A DNA stretch of 64,000 nt. It comes from an uncultured Bdellovibrionales bacterium (GTDB lineage Bacteria; Patescibacteriota; Minisyncoccia; Moranbacterales; UBA1568). A program made the translations under genes and the position numbers. The notes beneath the pieces were generated by a model that worked only from the letters and a program-made list of their open reading frames with translations, was not told the DNA's origin and made no database searches. Shown here in pieces: positions 20,316 to 50,942 of this stretch. The stretch is taken from the NCBI GenBank assembly GCA_964624415.1, contig CAZUWR010000001.1:3855-67854 (forward strand). Reading direction: 5' to 3'. The stretch's first letter is position 1, and the number at the start of each line of letters is the position of its first letter.

Positions 20316-22184
20316 ATGTTGCAGTTATTGAAGAGAATCAAAAGTGAATGGATACTTTTTTGCCTTGTCATTGCTTTGGGTATTTTCGTACGATCCTATC
20401 ATTTTTCGGATTGGCTTCACTTCGAGATAGATCAGTCGTATGATACGCGATTAGTCTCTCCCGGTGTCGAAAACGGCATCAGTAGCCTTCCTTTGCTTGG
20501 TCCGACGGCTGGTGGAGGCAGGACTTTGCGTCTCGGACCCGCTTTCTATTATCTTGAGTATCTTAGCGCGAAAGTATTCGGCAACACGCCTTCCGGACAT
20601 GCCGGTATAGTCTTGGTGCTTTCGCTGCTTTCTTTGCCGCTTTTTTATCTCCTGTGCCGGCGGTATTTTTCGCGGTACCTCGCGCTCAGCTTGCTGGCGA
20701 TTTTTTCGGTTTCTTTGTATATGGTTCTGTATTCGCGATTTTCGTGGAGCCCCAATGTGCTGCCATTTTTCATGATGCTGATTATGTATGCGCTCTTGCG
20801 AAGCGTATCTTTCGATGAAAAAAGACGCGAAGTATGGTTTCTGACAGCGGTAGCAGCGGTTGCAATCATTACGCAGATACATTTCAATGCGTTTTTTATC
20901 GTACCGCCGGTTGTAGCGATTTTCCTTATGATTAAGCGACCGCGTTTCGGATGGCAGACATGGCTTTCGGCGGTCGCAATCGTCTTAGTGGTATATGCGC
21001 CGGTGATTATCAGCGATATCAAGATGAACGGACAAAACACGATGTATTTTGTTGAAAGACTTGAATTTGGAGGGCAACACAATACGAAAGCACTGGAAAA
21101 GTTGGTTCAGATAACGCAGTATCATGCTGCCGATTATTTTTTGATTGATACGGGTATCGATAAGATCAATGGAAAAAAACTGATAGGGTATGGATGGCAA
21201 CCGCGAGGAATACTTCCTTGGAGACTTATCGCGCTTGCGCTTTTATTCGGTGAGCTGTATGTGCTTACCAGCAATATCCGCAAAGAAAAGGATACACACA
21301 GAAAAGATTTTCTTATTTTCTGCGGACTGCTTTTCTCTCTTTCGTTTCTCTATTTCTTCTCGCTTGCCAAGAGCGGATTCAATATTTATCCGCGATTCTT
21401 TCTTTTGGTCAGTCCATTGGCGATTATACTGCTCGGACTAATGCTTGAGACGCTGCACCCGGAAAGAAATCGGAAGCGGTTGGCGGTGTTTGCGGCAGTT
21501 ATAGCGCTTCTTGTCACATCCAATCTTTATAAGATTAATACATATTTTTCCCAACTGTCGCATACGCAAGAGCAGCCAAGTAAAGTGATGACTGAGGATG
21601 TGCTCCCTAATACGGCGCGTGCAACGCTGTCGGAGCAGCTGGCGGTCGTTGATTTCATCCAGTCCAAGCAAGAGGAGAATGGTTTCCCGGTCTATATCAA
21701 TGCGAAACATGAGTATGAGCCGGTATTTTGGTATCATCTGGAAAGGCGCGGCATCGCGTTTCATGAATCCATCAAAAACGATGTCGCTTATCGGGAGGCG
21801 AACTATTTTCTTATCACCTTTGCCGACAAAGGATTGAAGAGCTATGCATCGCGTTTCACGATCGCGGACAAAAAAACATGTGGTGTATTCAGCGTGTATA
21901 TGCTACGTCCGAATACGGAGAGTATCACCGCAGAGCGACAAACATCGGTAGGGGAAACGCCTATACAAACCCTGCAGATAAACGAGCTTTTCACCTGGAA
22001 TAAGTTGAGGTCATCATGGAATGCTGCGACGGATGCGGCTATCGAGGCGAAAATCCAGCAAGCGGAAACAACAGATATTCAAAATGATGTGACTCAAGGA
22101 CTTTCCAGTAGTGATGAAAACACGAACGGAGATGGCTCTGGTTCTCCTGATACTCCCATCGGTGCAGTCGATGATCTGGAGTAG
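20316..22184 (+). CDS. GT-C fold glycosyltransferase (family 39 / ArnT-PMT-like) with C-terminal soluble domain
   Basis: 622 aa with about 11 TM helices in the N-terminal 420 aa, followed by a soluble domain; architecture of ArnT/PMT-type lipid-linked-sugar transferases. Confidence 0.5.
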   Translation: MLQLLKRIKSEWILFCLVIALGIFVRSYHFSDWLHFEIDQSYDTRLVSPGVENGISSLPLLGPTAGGGRTLRLGPAFYYLEYLSAKVFGNTPSGHAGIVLVLSLLSLPLFYLLCRRYFSRYLALSLLAIFSVSLYMVLYSRFSWSPNVLPFFMMLIMYALLRSVSFDEKRREVWFLTAVAAVAIITQIHFNAFFIVPPVVAIFLMIKRPRFGWQTWLSAVAIVLVVYAPVIISDIKMNGQNTMYFVERLEFGGQHNTKALEKLVQITQYHAADYFLIDTGIDKINGKKLIGYGWQPRGILPWRLIALALLFGELYVLTSNIRKEKDTHRKDFLIFCGLLFSLSFLYFFSLAKSGFNIYPRFFLLVSPLAIILLGLMLETLHPERNRKRLAVFAAVIALLVTSNLYKINTYFSQLSHTQEQPSKVMTEDVLPNTARATLSEQLAVVDFIQSKQEENGFPVYINAKHEYEPVFWYHLERRGIAFHESIKNDVAYREANYFLITFADKGLKSYASRFTIADKKTCGVFSVYMLRPNTESITAERQTSVGETPIQTLQINELFTWNKLRSSWNAATDAAIEAKIQQAETTDIQNDVTQGLSSSDENTNGDGSGSPDTPIGAVDDLE

Positions 22185-33457: not shown

Positions 33458-34168
33458 TTATTCCCGGATACTGATGGAATCGAGATAGGGAAGCATTGTT
33501 TTTCGGATGGCATGCAGGTCGAGCTTATGTGTACCGATACGCTCGCGGAGGGTTTCGTCGGCAATTTTGAGCGGGCGGAAAGCCTGGAGGACATAGCTTT
33601 CGGCGCCGGCGATCCACTGCGCGATATCGAGGAAATCTTCGGGCGTGTGGATGCTGGGGACGACGGTGGTACGAAATTCATACGGCATACCGGAGGACAT
33701 CAGCAGTTTCACGGACTTCTCGAAGCGTTTGATGGGGATGGATGTGACACCGGATGCGAGCGGATACTTTTTTTGGCTGTGCTTGATATCCATCGCCCAA
33801 AAGTCCACCAAACCCGTGGCGAGGAGCGCTTCCACCTTGTCGGGGAAGATGCCGTTGGTATCGAGCTTGACGAGAAAGCCAAGGTCTTTGACACGGCGGA
33901 TGAAGTCGAGCAGGTCGGCGTGCAAGGTGGGCTCGCCGCCGGTAATGACCACGCCCTCGAGCAGTCCTTGGCGGGTCGCGAGAAATTCGAAAAACTCCTC
34001 TTCGCGATTGACGGTGAACAATTCCGAGGGACTGCCCGGGACGGCAGTGATGAGCTCGGGGTTGTGGCAATAGGGGCAACGAAGCGCGCAACCGGGCGTG
34101 AACACGATAGTGGCCAAGTGATCAGGGTAGTCGATAAGGGTGAGCGGTTCGAAGCCAGCGATACGCAT
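33458..34168 (-). CDS. nrdG: anaerobic ribonucleoside-triphosphate reductase activating protein (radical SAM)
   Basis: GCALRCPYCHNPEL radical-SAM cluster motif of the NrdG/PflA activase type; adjacent to nrdD. Confidence 0.75.
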   Translation of the reverse strand: MRIAGFEPLTLIDYPDHLATIVFTPGCALRCPYCHNPELITAVPGSPSELFTVNREEEFFEFLATRQGLLEGVVITGGEPTLHADLLDFIRRVKDLGFLVKLDTNGIFPDKVEALLATGLVDFWAMDIKHSQKKYPLASGVTSIPIKRFEKSVKLLMSSGMPYEFRTTVVPSIHTPEDFLDIAQWIAGAESYVLQAFRPLKIADETLRERIGTHKLDLHAIRKTMLPYLDSISIRE

Positions 34169-34171
34169 AGG

Positions 34172-34261
34172 ATTGACAAAAGTCGGTTACGGGTGTATAA
34201 TACGGTGTCTTATCAGTGAGGAATCTGACTGAGGAAAGACCAATGAACGAGGAGAGTACAA
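34172..34261 (+). promoter_or_regulatory. promoter-plus-leader cassette, copy B
   Basis: TTGACA, 17 nt, TATAAT, then CAGTGAGG...CTGACTGAGG hairpin, GAAAGACCAATGAA and a GAGGAG SD; paralogue of 33149..33244. Confidence 0.5.
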
Positions 34262-34630
34262 ATGAATATAGCTTTTTTACAAGTACCAGAGATTGACGAT
34301 TTGGCCGCTTTTGAGGATTGGCTCAAAGGAGAGGGGTATTTTCTCTCACAGATAGCTATAGAAGCCACTGTGAAAGAAATGATAGAGATCGAGCATACAC
34401 CGTGTATCGTCGTGTCAGTAGATGATATTAGTTTAGATCCTAGTTTACTAGTGCTAGACTGTCACAATCAAAGATTTATTATTTGGAGCACTCTCGAAAA
34501 TGAACTTGCGAATATTTCTGATATGTTTGGCTACTCTTATTGGGTGGCGGTGAATGTGGAAAATCAAGAACAGGATCCTTTAACTGAATCAGATGATAAG
34601 GATGATTTGGAAAATTATCTTTGGAATTGA
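34262..34630 (+). CDS. hypothetical acidic protein (122 aa), AT-rich, lying between nrdD and nrdG on the opposite strand
   Basis: ORF with a strong SD driven by cassette copy B; no family recognised. Confidence 0.4.
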   Translation: MNIAFLQVPEIDDLAAFEDWLKGEGYFLSQIAIEATVKEMIEIEHTPCIVVSVDDISLDPSLLVLDCHNQRFIIWSTLENELANISDMFGYSYWVAVNVENQEQDPLTESDDKDDLENYLWN

Positions 34631-34686
34631 CGCCCGCGCGCCGGAGAGAGGTTAGCAACCTTTCTCCCGGCGCTGTTTTTTTATCC

Positions 34687-36900
34687 TCACATCCGTGTCG
34701 CTTCCGCAGTGGCGAGAGAGATGTCCGAGACATACTCATTGCGATCGCCATACTCGGCGCGCTTGCCATTGTTCCACTGCTCGACGGGGCGGATATAGCC
34801 CACGACGCGTGAGTAGACTTCGGCTGGGCGCTCGCAGTGCGGGCAGATCGGTTGTTCGCCGGTCAAGTAGCCGTGCTCGGCGCAGATGCTGAAGGTCGGT
34901 GTGAGGGTGAAGTATGGCAGACTGTATTTTTCGGTGATAAGCTTGACCAGTTTTTTGGCTGTTTCGATGCCGTTGATTTTCTCTCCCAAAAATCCGTGTA
35001 GCACCGTGCCTCCCGTGTAGAGGGTTTGGAGGCCGTCTTGCAGATCGAGCGCTTCGAAGATATCGCTCGTGTGCCCCACGGGAATATGCGATGAGTTGGT
35101 GTAGTATGGGGCGGTTTGCTCGGATTGTACGGAAGCCTCATTGGCCACGATAATGTCTGGGTGGAATTTCTTGTCCAAAAGAGCGAGGCGATAAGCGGTG
35201 CCTTCGGCCGGTGTGGCTTCGAGGTTGTAGAGATTGCCGGTTTCTTTCTGATAGCCTTCCAGACGCTTGCGCATATGCGTGAGGATTTTTTTCGCGAAGG
35301 CTTGGCCTTTGGCGGTAGTGATATCGACTTGCGCGCCGAGGAGATTTTGGATGGCTTCGTTGGTGCCGACCAAACCGATAGTGCCGAAGTGATTTTGCCA
35401 GTAGGTGCCGAAGCGTTCCTTGATAGCGGAGAGGTAGAATTTGGTGTAGGGGTACAGACCCTTGTCCGTGAGGCGCTCGACGACGGTGCGCTTCATCTCA
35501 AGGCTTGTCTTGGCAAGGTCCATCTGATGGTCGAGTCGCGCGAAGAAGTCTTTTTCACTGGAAGCAAGATAGCCCAGGCGAGGAAGGTTGATGGTCACCA
35601 CACCAATGGAACCGGTGAGGGGATTGGCGCCGAAGAGTCCGCCACCGCGCTTGCGCAGTTCGCGATTATCGAGGCGCAATCGACAACACATACTGCGTGC
35701 ATCATCGGGATGCATATCCGAATTGACGAAGTTGGCGAAGTATGGGATGCCGTATTTGACCGTCATCTCCCACACGGGATTGAAGCTCTTGTCGTCCCAA
35801 TCAAAGTCCTTGGTGATATTGTAGGTCGGAATCGGGAAAGTGAAGATGCGTCCCGAGGCATCGCCTTCTGTCATCACTTCGGCGAAGGCGCGGTTGATCA
35901 TCGCCATTTCTTTGGGAAAATCGGCGTAGGTTTCTTTCTGGACTTCGCCTCCGCGGACGACATGTTCTTTGGCGAGCATCGCGGGCGCGGTGATGTCCAT
36001 CGTGATATTGGAAAACGGTGTCTGGAAGCCGACGCGCGTGGCGACATTCATATTGAACACGAAGGATTGGATGTCTTGCTTGACCTGCGCGTAACTGAGT
36101 TTGTCGTAGCGGATGAACGGGGCGAGCAGGGTGTCGAAACTCGAGAAGGCCTGCGCTCCGGCCACTTCGCCTTGGAGAGTGTAGATGAAATTGACCATCT
36201 GCCCGAGGATGGCGCTGAAGTGTTTGGCGGGTTTGCACGCCACCTTGCCTGGGACACCGGTGAAGCCGCGACGGATAAGGTCTTGCAGATCCCAACCGCA
36301 ACAGTATGCGGCGACGAGCTGCAAATCGTGGATGTGCAGGTCGCCCGATTCGTGCGCTTCGCGGATATCGGCCGTGTAGATGCGATTCATCCAGTACTTG
36401 GCACTGATAGCAGACGAAACATAGTTGTTCAGTCCCTGGAGAGAATAAGCCATATTGGCATTTTCTTTGACCTTCCAGTCGAGATTGCCGAGATAGTTGT
36501 CGATGAGCGAGACAGCATTGTCCAGAGCGGTTTCCGCTTCGCGTGCTTGACGCCTTTGCTCGCGGTAGAGGATGTAGGCTTTGGCGGTTTCTTCGAAGTC
36601 CAGTATCATCAGGACTTTTTCGGTGCAGTCCTGTACATTCTCGATAGTCGGCACAAAGGATTTCTTGGTGGCTTTGTGAAAGGTGCGCGCCTGTTTGTCT
36701 AGGAGTGCGACGACTTTTTTTGAAATACGTCGCGCATCCTTAAGAGATCCTTCCTGAGTAGCTTTGAAAGCCTTGCTGACGGCTTGGGTTATTTTGTCCG
36801 CTTTGAAAGAAACTCTGCGGCCGTCGCGTTTGATGAGGTGTTTGACACAGACGGCTTTGGACGAAACAGTGGCGGACGGCGTGGCGATAGTGCGTGGCAT
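34687..36900 (-). CDS. nrdD: anaerobic ribonucleoside-triphosphate reductase (class III)
   Basis: N-terminal ATP cone (VIKRDGRRVSF), C-terminal CPHC zinc site and glycyl-radical motif SRVVGYIRP; start at MPRTIA (the track extends to 36960). Confidence 0.85.
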   Translation of the reverse strand: MPRTIATPSATVSSKAVCVKHLIKRDGRRVSFKADKITQAVSKAFKATQEGSLKDARRISKKVVALLDKQARTFHKATKKSFVPTIENVQDCTEKVLMILDFEETAKAYILYREQRRQAREAETALDNAVSLIDNYLGNLDWKVKENANMAYSLQGLNNYVSSAISAKYWMNRIYTADIREAHESGDLHIHDLQLVAAYCCGWDLQDLIRRGFTGVPGKVACKPAKHFSAILGQMVNFIYTLQGEVAGAQAFSSFDTLLAPFIRYDKLSYAQVKQDIQSFVFNMNVATRVGFQTPFSNITMDITAPAMLAKEHVVRGGEVQKETYADFPKEMAMINRAFAEVMTEGDASGRIFTFPIPTYNITKDFDWDDKSFNPVWEMTVKYGIPYFANFVNSDMHPDDARSMCCRLRLDNRELRKRGGGLFGANPLTGSIGVVTINLPRLGYLASSEKDFFARLDHQMDLAKTSLEMKRTVVERLTDKGLYPYTKFYLSAIKERFGTYWQNHFGTIGLVGTNEAIQNLLGAQVDITTAKGQAFAKKILTHMRKRLEGYQKETGNLYNLEATPAEGTAYRLALLDKKFHPDIIVANEASVQSEQTAPYYTNSSHIPVGHTSDIFEALDLQDGLQTLYTGGTVLHGFLGEKINGIETAKKLVKLITEKYSLPYFTLTPTFSICAEHGYLTGEQPICPHCERPAEVYSRVVGYIRPVEQWNNGKRAEYGDRNEYVSDISLATAEATRM

Positions 36901-37111
36901 AATTGTGTTTTTATTAGGCAACCTGATGAATAAATTCCCCCAATAAACATTTTTCAACACGACGTCTTGTGGTAAAAAATGAAGAAACGCTACGACAGGT
37001 AGTGGTTTCTGACTCTATTATAGTCCTCTTGAGAAACTGCGCAAGTTTGGCTTTGCAGGGCTTAGGGTGTAAGATGGAAGGGAACTTCGTAACCATTTTT
37101 GTATCAATCAT

Positions 37112-41552: not shown

Positions 41553-41609
41553 TTTATAGAATCATAGTGTTTATGGTTTGTTGGTGTTTACACACAAGGA
41601 TATTGTTGT

Positions 41610-41680
41610 TGGGGAGGAAGGGATCGAACCTTCGCATGGGGGCTTCAAAGGCCCCTGCCTTACCGCTTGGCTACTCCCCA
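41610..41680 (-). tRNA. tRNA-Gln (anticodon UUG)
   Basis: 71-nt cloverleaf on the minus strand: acceptor TGGGGAG/CTCCCCA with U1-A72; T arm GAAGG-TTCGATC-CCTTC; anticodon stem GGGGC/GCCCC with loop CUUUGAA; 3-bp D stem as in bacterial tRNA-Gln; CCA not encoded. Confidence 0.8.
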
Positions 41681-43592: not shown

Positions 43593-44201
43593 TTATCGTT
43601 TGAATACCCAGAGTTTGTACCCGATGAAGTTCCAGGTCAGGACGAGTATGGAAGCGGTGGCGGAAGCGATGGAAGCCCAGGCTTTGTCGGTGATATTTCC
43701 GGGAGAGGTGACGATGTTGATCATTATCCAGGTGATACCGGCATTGATAACGAGGCCGACGATACTGACGAGCCAGAATTGGAGCACTTCTTTGCTCTTC
43801 GCCTCGCCTTGTTTTTCAAATGACCAGTACTTGTTCCAGATAAAGCTATTGATGATAGCAGCATTGACCGAGACGATTTTGAATCCGAGTATCGCGTTTC
43901 CGGTCGCGATATCCGTCATATAGATGAAAACATTGAAAATACCCAAATCAATAATGGTATTGGTCACGCCGATGATGCCGAATTTGCTGAGTTGGAAAAA
44001 AAACCTGAGGCGGTTGATGCGAGAGGCGATGAAATACGCGAGACTGATGCCGAGTGTGGCGAGAAGCGCGATGATAAAAACGAAAGCGAGATAGGGGATA
44101 GGAATTTTTGATCCGAGATTGGTGATGATGATAGGAGCTAAAAGTCCGATAAAGGCGCCGTTGATAGCGGCGAATGACAGGTCACGGAGGCGTAGGGTCA
44201 T
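43593..44201 (-). CDS. GtrA-family membrane protein
   Basis: FGIIGVTNTIIDLGIFNVF GtrA-like motif; 4-6 TM helices. Confidence 0.45.
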   Translation of the reverse strand: MTLRLRDLSFAAINGAFIGLLAPIIITNLGSKIPIPYLAFVFIIALLATLGISLAYFIASRINRLRFFFQLSKFGIIGVTNTIIDLGIFNVFIYMTDIATGNAILGFKIVSVNAAIINSFIWNKYWSFEKQGEAKSKEVLQFWLVSIVGLVINAGITWIMINIVTSPGNITDKAWASIASATASILVLTWNFIGYKLWVFKR

Positions 44202-44259: not shown

Positions 44260-45075
44260 CTATTCGCTTTTTTTCATTTCATTTTCGATTTCTTCAAGAT
44301 CCTTGACCCACTCATCGACGACCGCCTGCTTGTCTTCATCAGGAGCAGCTTCTTTGGCTTTGGATTTCTTGGCTGGTTTGGCTTTTTCTTCTGTTTCTTC
44401 TGGGTCGGTGGCTTCCGTATGAGTCGGCGCATCATCGTGCAAGTCTTCTTTCCACGCATGCATATCTTGCGGAGCAGCGTGCTCTCGAGGAGGCATCCAA
44501 TGCGACATTTTTTGGCTGCCTTTCTGGAGGATGTTTTCGATCGATGCCCAGGTGGCCTCGGTATCGCGCGGGAAGACGATAGCGACTTCATCGCCCGGCT
44601 CGCCCTTGAAATATGTGACGGATGCGAGAAGGACTTTGTATGGCCGTCCATCAGCGAGGATGCAGTAGTTGCCGTTTTCATCCTGACTGATGATACCCAA
44701 AGCGTGCTTGCGCTCGACTGGGCCGATCTGCTTGTAGATGAAAGAACCTTCGGGAGTGATGGTCAATTTGAGTACATCGCCTTCGATGAGTTTTGATTTG
44801 GAAGCGTAGTTGGCAGGGACAGGGTATTGCTTGCCATCGGTACCGAGCATGATCTGCCCGTCAAACATGCCTTCAACGACGGTGCCATCGGTCACTTCTT
44901 CTACCTTTCGTTTGCGACCGACTTTCTTCTTGCCTTCAATCTGAAGCAGCATGGCCTTGGCGCCCTGTATGGTTTTTTCCGCGCTGTTGATCATATCGCG
45001 CAGAGCCTGAATTTTTTGAGTAGCCTCTTTTTCTTTGGTTTCCGCGTCTTGAGGCGCATCGTTGTGTTGTATCAT
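44260..45075 (-). CDS. hypothetical protein with N-terminal coiled coil and acidic/Lys-rich C-terminus
   Basis: 271 aa; no family recognised; preceded by a minus-strand TGCTATACT promoter element at about 45150. Confidence 0.45.
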   Translation of the reverse strand: MIQHNDAPQDAETKEKEATQKIQALRDMINSAEKTIQGAKAMLLQIEGKKKVGRKRKVEEVTDGTVVEGMFDGQIMLGTDGKQYPVPANYASKSKLIEGDVLKLTITPEGSFIYKQIGPVERKHALGIISQDENGNYCILADGRPYKVLLASVTYFKGEPGDEVAIVFPRDTEATWASIENILQKGSQKMSHWMPPREHAAPQDMHAWKEDLHDDAPTHTEATDPEETEEKAKPAKKSKAKEAAPDEDKQAVVDEWVKDLEEIENEMKKSE

Positions 45076-45247
45076 CTTGTTTGCGGCGAATCACTTTTCA
45101 TTTCTCTAAAGTATGAAAAGCGTCTGCTTTTTTATTTTTATTTTACATATTCAGTATAGCATATTCTCTCTCAAGCGAGCAAGAGAATTTTAGTATAGAG
45201 TTTGCGACGGTAAATTTTGTAATGTATAGTGAAGTTAATTATTTATT

Positions 45248-47218
45248 ATGAATTATATGTATACACGAAGAGTATTATTGGCAGGCATCGGAGTATGTGT
45301 AGGTCTGTTTATTCTGGCGTGGTTTTGGGTAGCTCGATCGATATTTTTTCGCTCTACCGATATGACTATTCCTACGCAGAACATCTCTTCAGTTCACGTA
45401 CCTTCCTCAACGAAGGATGTAGAAAATATAACGGTGCCTGTTGGTGAATCCTCTGCATACGCACCTCCGGAAATGAAAACCTTCACAGAGTTTTCCAAGG
45501 ACGATATCCGTAAGGGGCAAGTGACATGGCAGGAACCTCAGGATATGGGTGATTTGGGGTGGACCTCTCACGATGTGTATACTGGAAAATATCAGAGTAA
45601 GAATGGGTATGCTTACTCCGGGGGTGTTAAATATTTGAAAGTTGGTACAGTGAAAGAGGGGATGTACACCGGGTCTGAAGTCATCGTCGTTTTTTCTTGG
45701 CTCTACACCGGAGATTTTCCAAGGGGTGAGTCGCCTGATATTCAGCATTACTTACGAAAAGATGGTAAGGTAACGCTGCTTACACATGCTGCTACGGCTA
45801 ATGGAGTCGAAGTTCCTTTGCCGACTTCAGATGTTAAGGCTGATGATTCCTCTCAAGATGATGATGCAAAAGCATTAATCCTGAAAGCTTCGAATGAAGT
45901 TGTTGATAATGAAACAAGAATTGAGGATTTAGCTCTGTATCCAACCGAATTCCAGGGTAGGAATAGCCGTGAAACATTTGTTAATAATGGGTATGCTGAT
46001 AGAGCGGTTTTTTCAAGTAAGGGTCTTAAGCTAGCGTTTGAAAGTTTGGAATTTGGACAGGTGTGGATGACGGATACGTCGTTCAAGGGAGAAATCCGCA
46101 CAGAGTTAAATAGTTATCAGGGTCGCGTGTATGATTCTAAGCCAGATAAAGATGGTAAAGACACTTTTAAAAGAGTAAAGAAGTATTACGATCCAGTTGT
46201 ATCGGGTGGATTTTATCTGAAACGTCCGGATGGTATTATGGAGGCGTACCGTTTGAAGTTCGATATTTTCGATATATTTGATCGACAAGGTGTACTCCAG
46301 GCGACATGGAATGATGGCTCAAAGAACACAACTTCGTATGAAGAATATCCGGGAGGATGTGGTATGACGGAGTATGTGTACGATAAGACAAACAGTGTCA
46401 GTATTAAAAAGGATTTAGTGATAATCGGAAAGACGGAGCAAGGAGATCTTTTGTATGGGTATAGGGAAAGCAATTCTGCATTGAAAAAGTATTTTGATGA
46501 AACATACTTACCGTCCCTTGGCAGGCAATCAAGTGCGGATTTGGGCATGGACAGAAATCAGCTTTGGAAAGAATTTCTGCAGAAGCGCCCAATAGTGTTG
46601 TGGCAGGATTCTTTTGGCCGCTTACTGGCGTTCTATAATACTGATACCATACCTTTGGCTGAATGCGGTAAACCGGTAGTATATCTGTACCCGGAAAAGA
46701 GTGCGGATGTTTCGGTAAGAGTCTTTCCGAGCGAAGGTGTGAGTGTTTCTGATCCTGCTTACAATGATGGTTGGGATGTTGTGGCGCAGCCAGATGGTAC
46801 CCTTATGAATAAGATGGATGGAAAAAATTACCCCTATCTATTTTGGGAAGGCGGAAGTGATACGCTTTACCAGACTCCTGAACAAGGATTTGTGGCTGCA
46901 AAAGAAGATCTGAGTGTATTTTTTGATGAGAAATTAAGCCAGCTTGGACTCTCAGCTAAAGAATCATCTGATTTCAAAGAATTTTGGATTCCGAAGATGA
47001 CCGAGAAAAGTAAGCCTTACTATTTCATTACTTTTCTTTCTCGTGCACAAATTGATAGATTGGCTCCTCTTGCAATAAATCCGAAGCCAGATACGATTAT
47101 CCGTGTCATGATGGATTATGAAGGACTGGATTCGTGGAAGGCTGTGCCGGGTTATGCTATCAAAACACCGAAGAGAGAAGGGTTTACCGCGGTTGAATGG
47201 GGGGGAAGAATGAAATAA
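45248..47218 (+). CDS. hypothetical large membrane-anchored extracytoplasmic protein
   Basis: 656 aa with a single N-terminal TM helix; 8 nt upstream of the Memo/CapA-like gene (likely an operon). Confidence 0.5.
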   Translation: MNYMYTRRVLLAGIGVCVGLFILAWFWVARSIFFRSTDMTIPTQNISSVHVPSSTKDVENITVPVGESSAYAPPEMKTFTEFSKDDIRKGQVTWQEPQDMGDLGWTSHDVYTGKYQSKNGYAYSGGVKYLKVGTVKEGMYTGSEVIVVFSWLYTGDFPRGESPDIQHYLRKDGKVTLLTHAATANGVEVPLPTSDVKADDSSQDDDAKALILKASNEVVDNETRIEDLALYPTEFQGRNSRETFVNNGYADRAVFSSKGLKLAFESLEFGQVWMTDTSFKGEIRTELNSYQGRVYDSKPDKDGKDTFKRVKKYYDPVVSGGFYLKRPDGIMEAYRLKFDIFDIFDRQGVLQATWNDGSKNTTSYEEYPGGCGMTEYVYDKTNSVSIKKDLVIIGKTEQGDLLYGYRESNSALKKYFDETYLPSLGRQSSADLGMDRNQLWKEFLQKRPIVLWQDSFGRLLAFYNTDTIPLAECGKPVVYLYPEKSADVSVRVFPSEGVSVSDPAYNDGWDVVAQPDGTLMNKMDGKNYPYLFWEGGSDTLYQTPEQGFVAAKEDLSVFFDEKLSQLGLSAKESSDFKEFWIPKMTEKSKPYYFITFLSRAQIDRLAPLAINPKPDTIIRVMMDYEGLDSWKAVPGYAIKTPKREGFTAVEWGGRMK

Positions 47219-47225
47219 AGCGGAT

Positions 47226-48836
47226 ATGAAAATATTGAGTGACCGCAAAATCATATACTATCTGTTGTTGGCTGGTGGCATAATCGCTACCAGCCTTTCG
47301 TACGCTTTTTTGAAAAGTGTTGATATTCAATCAAGCCTTACAAATGGAACGGAAAAAAAGAGCAGTGAACAATCTTTGTCAATCGTTTCTTTTATTACGC
47401 CCCATCATCTCGCTGCTAAAGAGTTTATGCATAAGATTTTTCATGATGTCAGCGATGCGGTCGGAGGTGATTCAATCGATCGTGTTATCTTGATAAGTCC
47501 GAATCATTTTAATATCGGAAAAAGTTGGGTGATCGGTTCTGAAAAAAGTTGGGAGACTCCCTTTGGTATGTTGTATGCGGATGCTGGTATGAGCAGTCAT
47601 CTTAAGGATGGGGTTTTTTTTGGCCAAGATATTTTTGAGCGTGAACATGGGATAAGGAATATCCTACCCTTCGTAAAAGAGTATTTTCCACAGGCTGCTG
47701 TAGTACCATTGGCTTTACGCGATGGATTTTCTGATGAAGGGGTAGATGCATTAGCACAAAGACTTGCACAATTATCAAGTCCGCATACGATCCTCATTGT
47801 TTCAGCTGACTTTTCTCATTACTTAGACTGGAATTTTTCTCGTTTTCATGATGCTAAAGCTAAAGAGATTCTCAGTCGTATGGATATGGATCATATCGGG
47901 TTACTGGACGTGGATTGCGCATCATGTTTGCGTGTCGCTATGCAATATTCAAGAATTCGCCATGCTGATCATTTTCAATTTGTTTCCCGATCGAGTTCTT
48001 TGGAGCTGGCTGGGTCAAATAGAGTCGGCGAAGAAACAAGTCATATAACCGGGTATTTTTCTTCGCAACTATCGCAGTCAGATGATGCATTGGATACAAC
48101 ACGTCTTCTGTTTTCCGGACAAGTCACACCGCAGGCCATGACTGAAAGTGCAAGAAGAATGTTTATGGGTCAAGATTTCAATATTTTTGAACAGGATGGC
48201 AGTATTGTATCGAATGTTTTCGATGACACTTCTTACAACTCGTCTTTGCATGTTTTGCAAAATTATTCACTGATGGATGATAAAGAATTATCTTCCGCAC
48301 GGATAATACACGGAAAACGGTTTGTGTTTGTTGATGCTGATATGCGAATTTCCGATGATGCCTCCGCGCAACGCGTATTGAATGAGGTGAGCGAGGCAAA
48401 ACAGCACAGTGATTTTGTGGTGGCTTTGTGGAGCAAAGATAAACAATCCCGAGGTTCTATGGGAAATGCTGACGCACAAAGGAAGCAGGCTCATGATCTT
48501 ATCGATGCAGGAGCGGATGTTGTGATTGGTTTGCGGGCTCAGAATTTTGAACCGATCGAGATATATAATAATAAAGCGATTTTTTCTTCTTTGGGCTATA
48601 ATGCCTCGCAGTGTAGGCTTTACAATCGTATGTGTGCAGGCGTGCAACTAGGGATAGGTTTTTCTTCGGATGCGATAGAATATGTTCTTATGCCCATTAT
48701 GAAGCAAAAAGATGGGCAAATTGTATTAGCAAAAAGTCCGGAAAGGGATATTATCCTTAAAAAGTTATCGGATACAAGGATCAGTAATTCGATGAAGCAA
48801 TCACTGCAAGAGGGGATGTTTACCTTACATAAATAG
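47226..48836 (+). CDS. Memo-like (AmmeMemoRadiSam protein B family) domain fused to a degenerate CapA/PGA_cap-like domain
   Basis: N-terminal half has Memo motifs (ITPHHLAAKEF, DRVILISPNH, SADFSHY); C-terminal half resembles CapA (LIDAGADVVIG...IFSSLGYN) but lacks the HWG/HHPH metal-binding histidines. Confidence 0.5.
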   Translation: MKILSDRKIIYYLLLAGGIIATSLSYAFLKSVDIQSSLTNGTEKKSSEQSLSIVSFITPHHLAAKEFMHKIFHDVSDAVGGDSIDRVILISPNHFNIGKSWVIGSEKSWETPFGMLYADAGMSSHLKDGVFFGQDIFEREHGIRNILPFVKEYFPQAAVVPLALRDGFSDEGVDALAQRLAQLSSPHTILIVSADFSHYLDWNFSRFHDAKAKEILSRMDMDHIGLLDVDCASCLRVAMQYSRIRHADHFQFVSRSSSLELAGSNRVGEETSHITGYFSSQLSQSDDALDTTRLLFSGQVTPQAMTESARRMFMGQDFNIFEQDGSIVSNVFDDTSYNSSLHVLQNYSLMDDKELSSARIIHGKRFVFVDADMRISDDASAQRVLNEVSEAKQHSDFVVALWSKDKQSRGSMGNADAQRKQAHDLIDAGADVVIGLRAQNFEPIEIYNNKAIFSSLGYNASQCRLYNRMCAGVQLGIGFSSDAIEYVLMPIMKQKDGQIVLAKSPERDIILKKLSDTRISNSMKQSLQEGMFTLHK

Positions 48837-48930: not shown

Positions 48931-49272
48931 TCAATCTTCGCAGATAGTTCGTTTATTGCATTGTCGCCATTGGAGCACACATTTTTCTAGAACATCCAAA
49001 TAGTGTCGGACACAAATACCCTTACCACCCGATTCCAGGTCTAAAGGATTGCCTCTGGTGACCTGAAAGCTATTATCGTCATCCGGCGTCTCATGACAGA
49101 TGATTTTACCTTTGACTACGACGTAGCAGGCACCGCCGCCCATCATACCAATGTATGGTCCTGGCACCTCGACGGTTTGCCCTGGCGGAATCGCAACATC
49201 TTCGCCGTATCCTACTCTGGTATCAAAGCAGAACGCGATGATTGCATAACCCGTGTTATTTGTGACTTGCAT
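48931..49272 (-). CDS. hypothetical protein
   Basis: 113-aa ORF; no family recognised. Confidence 0.3.
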   Translation of the reverse strand: MQVTNNTGYAIIAFCFDTRVGYGEDVAIPPGQTVEVPGPYIGMMGGGACYVVVKGKIICHETPDDDNSFQVTRGNPLDLESGGKGICVRHYLDVLEKCVLQWRQCNKRTICED

Positions 49273-49691: not shown

Positions 49692-49748
49692 GACTTTTGA
49701 ATTTGGCACCTAATACATCGGTTTAAACATATTTTTAAATAACATCGT

Positions 49749-50294
49749 ATGGCAAAGCAAACTCAACATCACGGACGCGCCTGGTATGTGCTCCATACCT
49801 ATTCGGGATACGAGGACAATGTGTCCCGCAACCTCAAGCAGCGTATCGAATCTATGGATATGCAGGAGCTCATCTTCGATGTCATCGTCCCGAAGGAGAA
49901 GAAGATCAAGATCAAGGCGGGTAAGCGCACAGTGATCGAGGAGCGCATTTATCCGGGGTATGTGCTGGTGGATATGGTGGTGACGGACGCATCCTGGTAT
50001 GTGGTACGCAATACGCCAAATGTGACCGGTTTCATCGGACTGGGTACGACACCGACACCGGTAGACCCACGAGAAATCGAGCAGCTCAAGAAGCGTATGG
50101 GTGTGGAAGAGCCGAAGTACAAGATGGACGTCAAGCTCAATGATCCTGTCAAAATCACCGAAGGACCGTTCAAGAACTTCGAGGGCAAGATTCAGGAAGT
50201 GGACGAAGAGCGAGGCAAGGTTAAAGTGTTGGTTTCCTTGTTCGGACGTGAGACACCGGTTGAATTGGACTTCCTCCAGATTAAAAAGGTGTAA
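49749..50294 (+). CDS. nusG: transcription termination/antitermination factor NusG
   Basis: NGN domain AWYVLHTYSGYE and a C-terminal KOW domain. Confidence 0.9.
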   Translation: MAKQTQHHGRAWYVLHTYSGYEDNVSRNLKQRIESMDMQELIFDVIVPKEKKIKIKAGKRTVIEERIYPGYVLVDMVVTDASWYVVRNTPNVTGFIGLGTTPTPVDPREIEQLKKRMGVEEPKYKMDVKLNDPVKITEGPFKNFEGKIQEVDEERGKVKVLVSLFGRETPVELDFLQIKKV

Positions 50295-50339
50295 TGACAG
50301 TATTTCAGGTATAATAAGGTTTGCTAAAGAATTAAAGTT

Positions 50340-50765
50340 ATGGCGAAGAAAATCAAGACGATTATCAAGTTGCAAATCCAGGGCGGAAAGGCGAATCCAG
50401 CTCCTCCAGTCGGACCAGCACTCGGTCAGCACGGTCTCAATATCCAGGATTTTTGCGCGAAGTTCAATGACGCGACCCGGGATAAGATGGGCGATGTGAT
50501 TCCTGCAGAAATCACCGTATACGATGATCGCACTTTCACGTTCGTACTCAAGACTCCTCCTGCTGCTGAGCTGCTCAAGAAGGCTGCCAAGGCAACTAAG
50601 GGTGCTGCTAATCCGCTCAAAGAAAAGGTGGGAACGGTTACAACAGAGCAGTTGCGAGAAATCGCGGAGACCAAGATGGAGGATTTGAACGCGAACGATG
50701 TGGATATGGCGATGCGAATCGTCGCCGGAACTGCCCGTTCGATGGGTATTAAGGTAAGCGAGTAG
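50340..50765 (+). CDS. rplK: 50S ribosomal protein L11
   Basis: [33 protein letters not shown]-terminus. Confidence 0.9.
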
Positions 50766-50793
50766 TTTTTGTAAGTAATTTTCTTGTGAAAAA

Positions 50794-50846
50794 GATTTTT
50801 TCATGACCACATGTGTACTCACATCGGTCTGGAAAAAATACTTTTT
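50794..50846. repeat. copy R2 of the approximately 50-nt hairpin element
   Basis: TTTTTTCATGACC-ACATGTG-TACT-CACAT-CGGTCTGGAAAAAA; inner stem differs from R1 by paired substitutions (GCG/CGC to GTG/CAC). Confidence 0.4.
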
Positions 50847-50942
50847 TAGCAAGAAAATAGCAACATTAAATATTGAGGAAGAGATTAATTTTTATCACAG
50901 TGGGAGCTTCGTTCGGCGAGGCGTCTGTACCACAACAAACAT

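What the first reader, a model, noticed from the sequence alone, without database searches (positions are those of the whole stretch)
45248..48836. Memo-like domain fused to a catalytically degenerate CapA-like domain, in an operon with a 656-aa surface protein
**N-terminal half.** The 47226 ORF carries Memo (AmmeMemoRadiSam protein B family) motifs: HHLAA, DRVILISPNH and SADFSHY.

**C-terminal half.** The last roughly 230 aa align to the CapA / poly-gamma-glutamate synthesis metallophosphatase-like domain (LIDAGADVVIG...SSLGYN). The metal-binding histidines are replaced: the HWG position reads LWS and HHPH reads LRAQ.

**Assessment.** No Memo-CapA fusion is known to me. A degenerate CapA is more likely a binding or scaffold module than an enzyme. 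The gene sits 8 nt downstream of an uncharacterised 656-aa membrane-anchored extracytoplasmic protein. Together they may form a cell-surface polymer or cell-envelope remodelling module.
Basis: partly seen in the sequence, partly recalled or inferred. Interest (0 to 1): 0.5.

Follow-up and report, generated by a model that had tools for sequence, protein, structure and literature searches.

The report
Memo enzyme with dead CapA domain
This candidate-phyla-radiation bacterium encodes a membrane-anchored Memo-type metal-binding domain fused to a CapA-type domain that has lost its whole active site, co-transcribed with a large surface protein of unknown fold; the pair is a widespread but undescribed two-gene module of these bacteria.

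Summary
ORF 47226-48836 (536 aa) has three parts:
- an N-terminal membrane anchor;
- a Memo domain (Pfam E 1.6e-15; MEMO1 fold E 8e-11);
- a CapA/PGA_cap-type calcineurin-fold domain (Pfam E 3e-11; MslH fold E 1e-8).

All metal-ligand and catalytic positions of the CapA half are replaced or deleted.

The fusion is not unique. About 100 protein clusters and dozens of Patescibacteria species carry it. Most have an intact CapA site (29/29 for each of seven ligand or catalytic columns). They are auto-annotated as "AmmeMemoRadiSam protein B" or "CapA".

The query belongs to a monophyletic Moranbacteria clade of 16 clusters. This clade lost the site and about 64 aa but kept a folded, conserved domain. 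Such inactivation happened at least three times independently.

The 656-aa neighbour has no Pfam model and no structural match. Its family has at least 7,971 clusters at 50% identity. It is a true conserved partner: 27 of 34 partner genes with full flanks sit beside a Memo-family gene on the same strand. Where it is absent, a DUF3160 secreted protein usually takes its place.

The gene belongs neither to a radical-SAM/AMMECR1 system nor to a poly-gamma-glutamate operon.

Best reading: an extracytoplasmic Memo-centred module with a pseudoenzyme CapA scaffold. Its chemistry is unknown.

The parts
45202..45230 (+). Sigma-70-like promoter candidate (TTGCGA-17-TATAGT) 18 nt upstream of the first gene of the pair
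   Evidence: 9 of 12 matches. The number of such sites in the region is no higher than in shuffles, so this is weak evidence. The divergent upstream gene (44260-45075, minus strand) makes this 172-nt spacer the likely promoter region.
45248..47218 (+). Partner A gene: 656-aa membrane-anchored protein of a very large orphan family
45260..45346 (+). N-terminal transmembrane anchor of partner A (aa 5-33)
   Evidence: AF2 helix 3-33. Single hydrophobic 19-mer in the query; an N-terminal hydrophobic segment is present in 72 of 76 family members.
45473..46642 (+). Beta-rich ectodomain region of partner A (aa 76-465)
   Evidence: AF2 secondary structure. Only weak beta-sandwich or propeller-like similarities.
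46655..47215 (+). Conserved C-terminal alpha/beta domain of partner A (aa 470-656; AECGKPVxYLYP ... YPYLFWEG ... EWGG)
   Evidence: Densest block of nearly invariant residues. Occurs as a stand-alone protein and in other architectures. No Pfam hit even at E<=10.
47226..48836 (+). Memo-CapA fusion gene (536 aa), 7 nt downstream of partner A
47235..47315 (+). N-terminal transmembrane anchor (aa 4-30)
   Evidence: AF2 helix 4-30. Single hydrophobic segment in the query; an N-terminal hydrophobic segment is present in 108 of 116 family members.
47376..48071 (+). Memo (LigB-superfamily) domain, aa 51-282, with conserved H60, H94, H141, D195, H198, D230 and C231
   Evidence: PF01875 E 1.6e-15 and TIGR04336 E 3e-25. 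Foldseek to MEMO1 7kq8, E 8e-11. H49/H81/H131/D189/H192 of MEMO1 map to H60/H94/H141/D195/H198. These residues are at least 90% conserved in 116 sequences.
48093..48833 (+). Degenerate, shortened CapA/PGA_cap (calcineurin-fold) domain, aa 290-536
   Evidence: PF09587 E 3e-11, partial match. MslH sequence E 2e-5 and fold E 1e-8. All ligand and catalytic columns lost, and about 64 aa shorter than intact relatives. pLDDT mostly above 90.

Best explanation
**What it is**
- The two genes form one transcription unit. It encodes two single-pass, membrane-anchored proteins whose bulk lies outside the cytoplasmic membrane of a Patescibacteria (Moranbacteria-type) cell.
- The 536-aa protein belongs to a Patescibacteria-wide family: N-terminal anchor, Memo domain, CapA/PGA_cap domain.

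**What each domain does**
- The Memo domain keeps the His/His/Asp/His constellation of MEMO1-type metal sites. It is the functional core.
- It is retained in every lineage, including lineages that lack CapA altogether.
- The CapA domain is ancestrally an intact one-metal acid/base site of the MslH/PgsA type. The only activities documented for that family concern the stereochemistry of peptide-bound amino acids.
- In the query's clade the CapA domain is a pseudoenzyme. Every ligand and both catalytic dyads are gone and the NNH-bearing segment is deleted.
- The fold and a set of non-catalytic polar residues (R311, D317, D427, D431, E445, Y447) are still preserved.
- It therefore most likely serves as a structural or binding platform for the Memo domain, the partner, or both.

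**How it works**
- The Memo(-CapA) protein acts together with, or on, its co-encoded large surface protein. That is partner A here and a DUF3160 protein in other lineages.

**Shown and inferred**
- Shown: domain identities, loss of the active site, family distribution, conserved gene pairing, and independence from radical-SAM/AMMECR1 and pgsBC genes.
- Inferred: extracytoplasmic location, physical or functional interaction with the partner, and metal binding.
- Unknown: the chemistry performed.
For: **Domains**
- Profile hits. Solved-structure sequence hits.
- AF2 model: pLDDT 90.4, pTM 0.87.
- Fold matches: MEMO1 E 8e-11 and MslH E 1e-8.

**Loss of the CapA site**
- Ligand and catalytic columns are D/E/N/H/H/H/H in 29/29 intact relatives. 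They are retained in 0-1 of 16 sequences in the query clade.
- About 64 aa are deleted.
- The MslH residues that define the site come from PMC10406935.

**Retention under constraint**
- 33 positions are conserved in at least 14 of 16 clade members.
- 20 of these are shared with intact forms.
- pLDDT of the CapA-like half is high.

**Shift of constraint**
- Within the clade, identity is 57% in the Memo half and 36% in the CapA-like half.
- In intact forms the figures are 42% and 47%.

**Repeated inactivation**
- At least three independent inactivations, plus Memo-only forms.

**Gene pairing**
- The partner is adjacent on the same strand, with small gaps or overlaps in most cases, in the window and in L001-L006.
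- Of 66 species loci, 24 sit next to partner A and 31 next to DUF3160.
- Reverse test: 27 of 34 partner genes with full flanks have a Memo-family neighbour.

**Topology**
- N-terminal hydrophobic anchors are present in 108 of 116 and 72 of 76 family members.
- DUF3160 partners carry lipoprotein or transmembrane N-termini.
Against: - There is no experimental or co-folding evidence that the two proteins interact.
- Orientation in the membrane is inferred. The K/R bias is ambiguous family-wide (60 of 108).
- The third MEMO1 metal ligand (C244) could not be mapped by sequence. The candidate D230/C231 is an inference, and position 231 is Ser in many relatives.
- Neither MEMO1 nor any bacterial Memo has a known reaction (PMC11081632).
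- 11 of 66 loci show neither partner within the flanks held. Four of those have truncated flanks.
- The CapA remnant could have acquired a new, unrecognised site.
Confidence: 0.6

Rival explanations
1. The CapA-like half is not dead but neo-functionalised. It would use a different set of residues, for example the clade-specific conserved R310, C470 and R507 together with the retained D317, D427, D431 and E445, for a new catalytic or metal-binding activity.
For: 13 of the 33 clade-conserved positions are clade-specific. The domain is well folded and conserved across 16 clusters.
Against: All seven canonical ligand or catalytic columns are variable within the clade, with no replacement consensus. 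Constraint on this half dropped relative to the Memo half. Other lineages lost the site independently or lack the domain entirely.
Confidence: 0.1
2. The CapA-like half is an eroding relic with no function of its own, on its way to deletion as in the Memo-only relatives.
For: Memo-only versions exist and still pair with the partners. The domain is shortened and constraint is relaxed.
Against: It is retained across a diverse monophyletic clade with 36% mean identity and 33 conserved positions. These include polar residues that are invariant in intact forms. The fold prediction is confident and pTM is 0.87 for the two-domain unit.
Confidence: 0.12
3. It is subunit B of an AmmeMemoRadiSam system, as NCBI names its relatives, working with AMMECR1 and a radical-SAM enzyme in the cytoplasm.
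For: TIGR04336 scores 89 bits against a cut-off of 26. NCBI names homologues this way.
Against: There is no AMMECR1 motif in the 64-kb window. The only radical-SAM gene there is the NrdG-type activase next to NrdD. Among 81 related loci, the rSAM-Memo-AMMECR1 triad appears only in the distant, unfused L077. The protein has an N-terminal membrane anchor and secreted or lipoprotein partners.
Confidence: 0.03
4. It is the CapA/PgsA component of a poly-gamma-glutamate capsule synthetase.
For: PF09587 hit. JGI names relatives this way. It has an N-terminal anchor like PgsA.
Against: No Mur-ligase-type (PgsB) or CapC Pfam families are among the called neighbours in five annotated loci. No PgsB-like P-loop motif occurs in 81 loci. 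The CapA site is destroyed. NF038314 and the other equivalog models score far below their cut-offs.
Confidence: 0.03

Closest known systems
MEMO1 / Memo family (PF01875; LigB class III extradiol dioxygenase superfamily)
   Same: Same fold (Foldseek E 8e-11, TM about 0.64 on the target). Conserved equivalents of H49, H81, H131, D189 and H192.
   Different: This protein is membrane-anchored and predicted to be extracytoplasmic. It is fused to a calcineurin-fold domain. The third ligand (C244) is not mapped. It is paired with large secreted proteins rather than cytosolic partners. MEMO1's own reaction is unknown.
AmmeMemoRadiSam system protein B (TIGR04336)
   Same: Scores above the model cut-off.
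   Different: It lacks the defining genomic association with AMMECR1 and radical-SAM genes. It has a membrane anchor and a different conserved partner.
MslH lasso-peptide C-terminal Trp epimerase and PgsA/CapA (PF09587, calcineurin-like fold)
   Same: Homologous fold and sequence. Intact relatives of the query keep the D11, E44, N87/H88, H259 and H295 equivalents. The N-terminal anchor resembles that of PgsA.
   Different: The query has none of these residues and lacks the NNH segment. There is no RiPP or pgsBC context. NF038314 scores 39 bits against a cut-off of 700.
Catalytically inert metallophosphoesterase-fold scaffolds such as Vps29 (analogy only)
   Same: A calcineurin-type fold retained without a working metal site and used, by this inference, as an interaction platform. 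Weak fold matches, E about 4e-3.
   Different: There is no specific homology beyond the superfold. Scaffold function has not been demonstrated here.
DUF3160 (PF11369) secreted proteins
   Same: They occupy the same operonic position next to Memo(-CapA) genes in other Patescibacteria. They are extracytoplasmic.
   Different: They are not homologous to the window's partner A (hhalign probability 0.2%). No DUF3160 gene lies at this locus.

Membership tests
Memo (PF01875) | Profile score above the Pfam gathering threshold | tested here: met
   57.5 bits against 27, E 1.6e-15.
Memo (PF01875) | MEMO1/LigB-type fold | tested here: met
   Foldseek to 7kq8, 7l5c and 3bcz at E about 1e-10. LigB-type dioxygenases at E 1e-6 to 1e-5. 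Model pLDDT 90.4.
Memo (PF01875) | Metal ligands H49 and H81 | tested here: met
   They map to H60 and H94. Both are at least 90% conserved in 116 sequences.
Memo (PF01875) | Third metal ligand (C244 in MEMO1, Glu in LigB) | tested here: inconclusive
   The sequence alignment stops before this position. The candidate is D230/C231. D230 is at least 90% conserved, while position 231 is Cys in the query clade and Ser in many others.
AmmeMemoRadiSam system protein B (TIGR04336) | HMM score above the cut-off | tested here: met
   89 bits against 26.
AmmeMemoRadiSam system protein B (TIGR04336) | Encoded with AMMECR1 and a radical-SAM enzyme | tested here: not met
   None in the 64-kb window or in 80 of the 81 related loci scanned. 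The triad was detected only in the unfused control L077. The rest of the genome could not be searched.
CapA/PgsA, PGA_cap (PF09587) | Profile score above the gathering threshold | tested here: met
   43.7 bits against 27, but only profile positions 171-249 of 255 match.
CapA/PgsA, PGA_cap (PF09587) | Calcineurin-like fold | tested here: met
   Foldseek to MslH 8ith/8gq9 at E 1e-8 to 4e-8, and to the YmdB-like 1t70 at E 2e-4.
CapA/PgsA, PGA_cap (PF09587) | Metal-binding and catalytic residues (GD, NLE, NNH, HWG, HPH; MslH D11, E44, N87, H88, H259, H295) | tested here: not met
   The query has Q299, D324, a deletion, a gap in a segment without His, and Q439. The clade retains 0-1 of 16 at each column, against 29/29 in intact relatives.
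CapA/PgsA, PGA_cap (PF09587) | Operon with pgsB (Mur-ligase-like) and pgsC | tested here: not met
   No such Pfam families among the called neighbours in five annotated loci. No PgsB-like motif in 81 loci.
MslH-type lasso peptide epimerase (NF038314) | Equivalog score and His/Asp catalytic dyads | tested here: not met
   39 bits against a cut-off of 700. Equivalents of H88/D91 and H295/D11 are absent.
Patescibacteria Memo(-CapA) plus partner A two-gene module (defined here) | Same-strand adjacency of a Memo-family gene and a partner A gene | tested here: met
   In the window the gap is 7 nt. Also seen in L001-L006 and 24 of 66 species loci, and in 27 of 34 partner-selected loci with full flanks.

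The most novel reading that the evidence does not exclude
Memo(-CapA) proteins of Patescibacteria are dedicated extracytoplasmic maturation or modification enzymes for the giant surface proteins they are encoded with (partner A or DUF3160).

One possible scheme is a Memo-catalysed, metal-dependent oxidation or cleavage, plus CapA-catalysed epimerisation of a peptide terminus in lineages with an intact site. In the query's clade the CapA domain would be kept only as the docking platform.

If true, this would give the first defined substrate and role for a bacterial Memo protein. It would also give functional context to DUF3160 and to an orphan family of more than 7,900 clusters.
Probability: 0.2. 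Interest if true: 0.75.

Novelty: new variant of a known kind. Interest (0 to 1): 0.5.

Why it matters
**An open question becomes approachable.** The molecular function of Memo proteins is open in humans (MEMO1) and in bacteria. Here a Memo domain has a fixed, identifiable partner protein and a predicted location outside the cell. That gives a concrete pair to co-express, co-fold and assay.

**A natural experiment.** The family contains intact, inactivated (at least three times) and absent CapA domains on the same Memo core. Comparing them can separate the contributions of the two domains.

**Dark matter placed in context.** Partner A is one of the larger protein families with no Pfam model and no structural relative. 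Its tight link to Memo places a piece of candidate-phyla-radiation dark matter into a functional setting.

**Annotation.** Current automatic names ("AmmeMemoRadiSam system protein B", "poly-gamma-glutamate synthesis protein") are misleading for this family.

Tried and rejected
**Partner A: searches that found nothing**
- Pfam and NCBIfam on the whole protein and on its two halves, up to E 10.
- PDB profile search.
- The afdb50 fold library was unavailable.
- Longer family members were checked for informative fusions. Only ankyrin, TIG and CarboxypepD_reg combinations with the C-terminal domain appeared.

**Partner A and DUF3160**
- Possible distant homology was rejected. hhalign probability is 0.2%.

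**Literature**
- No paper holds both 'Memo' and 'PGA_cap'.
- 'AmmeMemoRadiSam' appears only as an annotation label.
- DUF3160 appears once, as a 'secreted enzyme'.
- The broad Patescibacteria/CapA/Memo search was swamped by word-start matches.
- The Burroughs/Aravind LigB-superfamily paper is not held.

**Other attempts**
- The first genome scan with alignment A1 failed because it had no sufficiently conserved stretch. It was repeated with the tighter A3.
- C244 of MEMO1 could not be placed by sequence alignment.
- The promoter and terminator scan gave nothing above shuffle expectation.
- The pseudogene or artefact reading was rejected. The ORF is intact, is identical to a database protein, and is conserved across 16 clusters.
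Full report
**1. Observation**

The window carries two same-strand ORFs: 45248-47218 (656 aa) and 47226-48836 (536 aa). They are separated by 7 nt.

Surrounding genes point to a Patescibacteria (candidate phyla radiation) genome:
- dnaX, a GtrA-like gene, nusG-rplK-rplA and nrdD/nrdG;
- closest homologues from Moranbacteria MAGs.

The 536-aa protein matches these models:

| Model | E-value | Bits / cut-off | Region matched |
|---|---|---|---|
| Memo PF01875 | 1.6e-15 | 57.5 / 27 | aa 54-225 |
| TIGR04336 | 3e-25 | 89 / 26 | aa 47-265 |
| PGA_cap PF09587 | 3.2e-11 | 43.7 / 27 | aa 377-457, profile 171-249 of 255 |

The only solved-structure relative found by single-sequence search is the lasso-peptide epimerase MslH (E 2e-5).

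**2. Structure**

An AlphaFold2 model built on 116 homologues is confident, with pLDDT 90.4 and pTM 0.87. It shows:
- an N-terminal helix (aa 4-30);
- a Memo-fold domain (about aa 51-282);
- a second alpha/beta domain (about aa 290-536).

Foldseek against the PDB returns:
- MEMO1 (7kq8, E 8e-11) and LigB-type dioxygenases for the first domain;
- MslH (8ith, E 1e-8), a YmdB-like phosphatase and, weakly, Vps29 for the second.

**3. The fusion is a family, and the query is its degenerate branch**

The homologue search found 116 clusters. About 90 carry both Pfam domains, and nearly all named ones are Patescibacteria.

Most are 585-630 aa. They carry the full CapA motif set: GDxMLDR, NLEG, NNH, HWGxEY, GSHPH and SLGNFxFDQ.

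A profile of the family aligns to MslH so that these motifs correspond to D11, E44, N87/H88, H259 and H295. According to PMC10406935, those are the metal ligands and the two His/Asp catalytic dyads.

In 29 intact relatives, each of seven ligand or catalytic columns is 100% conserved. In the 16 clusters of the query's clade (504-541 aa), they are retained in 0-1 sequences.

The query itself reads:

| Motif (MslH residue) | Query |
|---|---|
| GD (D11) | Q299 |
| NLE (E44) | D324 |
| NNH (N87/H88) | deleted |
| HWG (H259) | gap; neighbouring segment ALWSKD has no His |
| HPH (H295) | Q439 |

The stretch between the GD and HWG positions is about 64 aa shorter than in intact relatives.

**4. The remnant is conserved, not decaying**

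Mean pairwise identity by half:

| Group | Memo half | CapA-like half |
|---|---|---|
| Query clade | 57% | 36% |
| Intact forms | 42% | 47% |

So constraint shifted away from the CapA half but did not vanish.
- 33 positions are conserved in at least 14 of 16 clade members.
- 20 of those are the same residues conserved in intact forms. They include the polar R311, D317, D427, D431, E445 and Y447.
- No replacement consensus appears at the lost ligand columns.

**5. Repeated loss**

A neighbour-joining tree on the Memo half places the query clade as a monophyletic group. It is sister to intact fusions P0017 and P0020.

A second degenerate clade (P0075-P0091) and two further degenerate lineages (P0064/P0067, and P0073) sit elsewhere among intact forms.

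Memo-only versions of about 300 aa also exist. The Memo domain is the constant element, and the CapA activity is dispensable.

**6. Memo site**

MEMO1 binds Fe or Cu through H49, H81 and C244. H131, D189 and H192 lie nearby (PMC11081632).

Profile alignment gives these equivalences:

| MEMO1 | Query |
|---|---|
| H49 | H60 |
| H81 | H94 |
| H131 | H141 |
| D189 | D195 |
| H192 | H198 |

That alignment used my recalled MEMO1 sequence. Its score reproduces the PDB search score. All five query residues are at least 90% conserved in the family.

C244 could not be mapped. D230/C231 at the start of the following helix is a candidate by inference only.

**7. The neighbour is a real partner**

The 656-aa protein has:
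- no Pfam or NCBIfam hit;
- no PDB sequence hit;

Its family is very large: 7,971 representatives at 50% identity with E<=1e-3, and 4,817 with E<=1e-30.

Its C-terminal domain of about 190 aa also occurs alone and with ankyrin, TIG or CarboxypepD_reg domains.

Homologues of it flank Memo-CapA genes on the same strand with small gaps or overlaps:
- upstream in Moranbacteria (the window, and L001 at 56% identity);
- immediately downstream in other lineages (L002-L006, at 38% identity for L002).

Thirteen pairs of hits from the two independent protein searches share the same longest-contig length.

In the reverse test, 80 metagenome loci were chosen only by the partner. Of 34 full-length partner genes with at least 1.7 kb on both sides, 27 have a Memo-family gene adjacent on the same strand. 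These comprise 18 intact fusions, 4 degenerate fusions, 4 Memo-only genes and 1 CapA-only gene.

**8. An alternative partner**

66 GTDB species loci have a strong family match.

| Neighbour | Loci |
|---|---|
| Partner A | 24 |
| DUF3160 | 31 |
| Neither | 11 (4 with truncated flanks) |

- The DUF3160 gene lies immediately upstream on the same strand. It encodes about 850-900 aa and matches PF11369 at E 1e-98 to 1e-162.
- The DUF3160 proteins carry lipoprotein-type or transmembrane N-termini.
- They are not homologous to partner A (hhalign probability 0.2%).
- Degenerate fusions pair with partner A in 5 of 6 loci and never with DUF3160.
- The only literature note on DUF3160 calls it a secreted enzyme (PMC4158269).

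**9. What it is not**

Not an AmmeMemoRadiSam system:
- The window has no AMMECR1 signature.
- Its only radical-SAM gene is the NrdG-type activase beside nrdD.
- Among 81 related loci, the rSAM-Memo-AMMECR1 triad appears once, in the distant unfused L077. That locus serves as a positive control for the motif scan.

Not a poly-gamma-glutamate operon:
- No Mur-ligase or CapC families occur among the called neighbours in five Pfam-annotated loci.
- No PgsB-like motif occurs in 81 loci.

**10. Mechanism (committed, with gradation)**

Shown:
- a two-gene unit encoding two N-terminally anchored proteins;
- an intact Memo site;
- a dead but conserved CapA fold.

Inferred:
- Both ectodomains lie outside the membrane. 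The basis is the single N-terminal hydrophobic segment in 108 of 116 and 72 of 76 family members, analogy with the known topology of PgsA, and the lipoprotein signals of the alternative partners.
- The Memo domain is the metal-dependent working part.
- The CapA remnant is a docking or structural module.
- The protein acts with or on its co-encoded surface protein.

For lineages with an intact CapA site, the only documented activities of that family concern stereochemistry:
- MslH epimerises a peptide C-terminal residue.
- pgsA is needed for the D-Glu content of gamma-PGA, with a D/L ratio of 75/25 with pgsA and 5/95 without it (PMC6029982).

Memo-like domains fused to RiPP recognition elements have been noted (PMC12710340). 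That fits a peptide or protein substrate, but this remains speculation.

**11. Novelty and limits**

- Both domain families are known. The fusion is present, though mislabelled, in public annotation.
- I found no paper describing the fusion, its inactivated variants or the gene pairing.
- The finding is therefore a new variant of a known kind, set within an undescribed conserved module.
- The chemistry, the interaction and the localisation remain untested.
- Only 64 kb of the genome could be inspected for distant partner genes.

Noticed in passing
L020-L073 (for example L054:799-3315, L027:763-3273): In 31 Patescibacteria loci, the Memo or Memo-CapA gene is preceded on the same strand by a DUF3160 (PF11369) protein of about 850-900 aa, instead of the window's partner family. 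Many of these proteins have lipobox N-termini. The two partner families are unrelated (hhalign probability 0.2%).
   Followed up: partly
window 46655-47215 (aa 470-656 of the 656-aa protein): The C-terminal domain of about 190 aa (AECGKPVxYLYP ... YPYLFWEG ... EWGG) is a separate module. It occurs as stand-alone proteins of 190-340 aa. It occurs in three copies with ankyrin repeats in P0278 (1120 aa). It also occurs with TIG (P0360) or CarboxypepD_reg (P0416, P0418), and once outside Patescibacteria (Crocinitomicaceae, P0426). It has no Pfam model.
   Followed up: partly
L077:2245-4716: A canonical three-gene arrangement in a Patescibacteria MAG (UBA10108): radical-SAM (Cx3Cx2C), unfused Memo and AMMECR1 (LRGCIG motif). 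The phylum therefore has both the classical cytoplasmic system and the anchored fusion family.
   Followed up: no
L022, L028, L029, L038, L059, L062, L071: Seven Memo or Memo-CapA loci have full flanks but neither partner A nor DUF3160 within 3.5 kb. A third partner type, or unlinked partners, may exist.
   Followed up: no
window 33458-36960 (minus strand): Anaerobic ribonucleotide reductase NrdD (757 aa, with ATP-cone) and its radical-SAM activase (236 aa). This is the only radical-SAM gene in the window.
   Followed up: yes
window 44260-45075 (minus strand) and 48931-49272 (minus strand): The flanking genes (271 aa and 113 aa) have no Pfam or NCBIfam match. The 271-aa gene is divergently oriented from the pair. 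It is followed by a GtrA-like membrane protein (43593-44201) and dnaX. None of these neighbours is conserved in related loci.
   Followed up: partly
window 49710-50852 (minus strand): A 380-aa ORF runs antisense to nusG and rplK. It is almost certainly a spurious ORF.
   Followed up: no
window 1-64000: ARAGORN finds only one tRNA gene (tRNA-Gln, 41608-41680, minus strand) in 64 kb.
   Followed up: no
L008, L015, L017, L020-L023 and other record titles: Several TPA metagenome bins are titled 'uncultured Bdellovibrionales', 'Gammaproteobacteria' or 'archaeon'. They carry this Patescibacteria-type gene pair with the same gene order (L008: 44% identity, partner upstream). The record titles probably mislabel the taxon.
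   Followed up: no
window 20316-22184: A 622-aa PMT_2 (dolichyl-phosphate-mannose-type glycosyltransferase family) membrane protein. This is another envelope-modification gene in the window, not linked to the pair.
   Followed up: no
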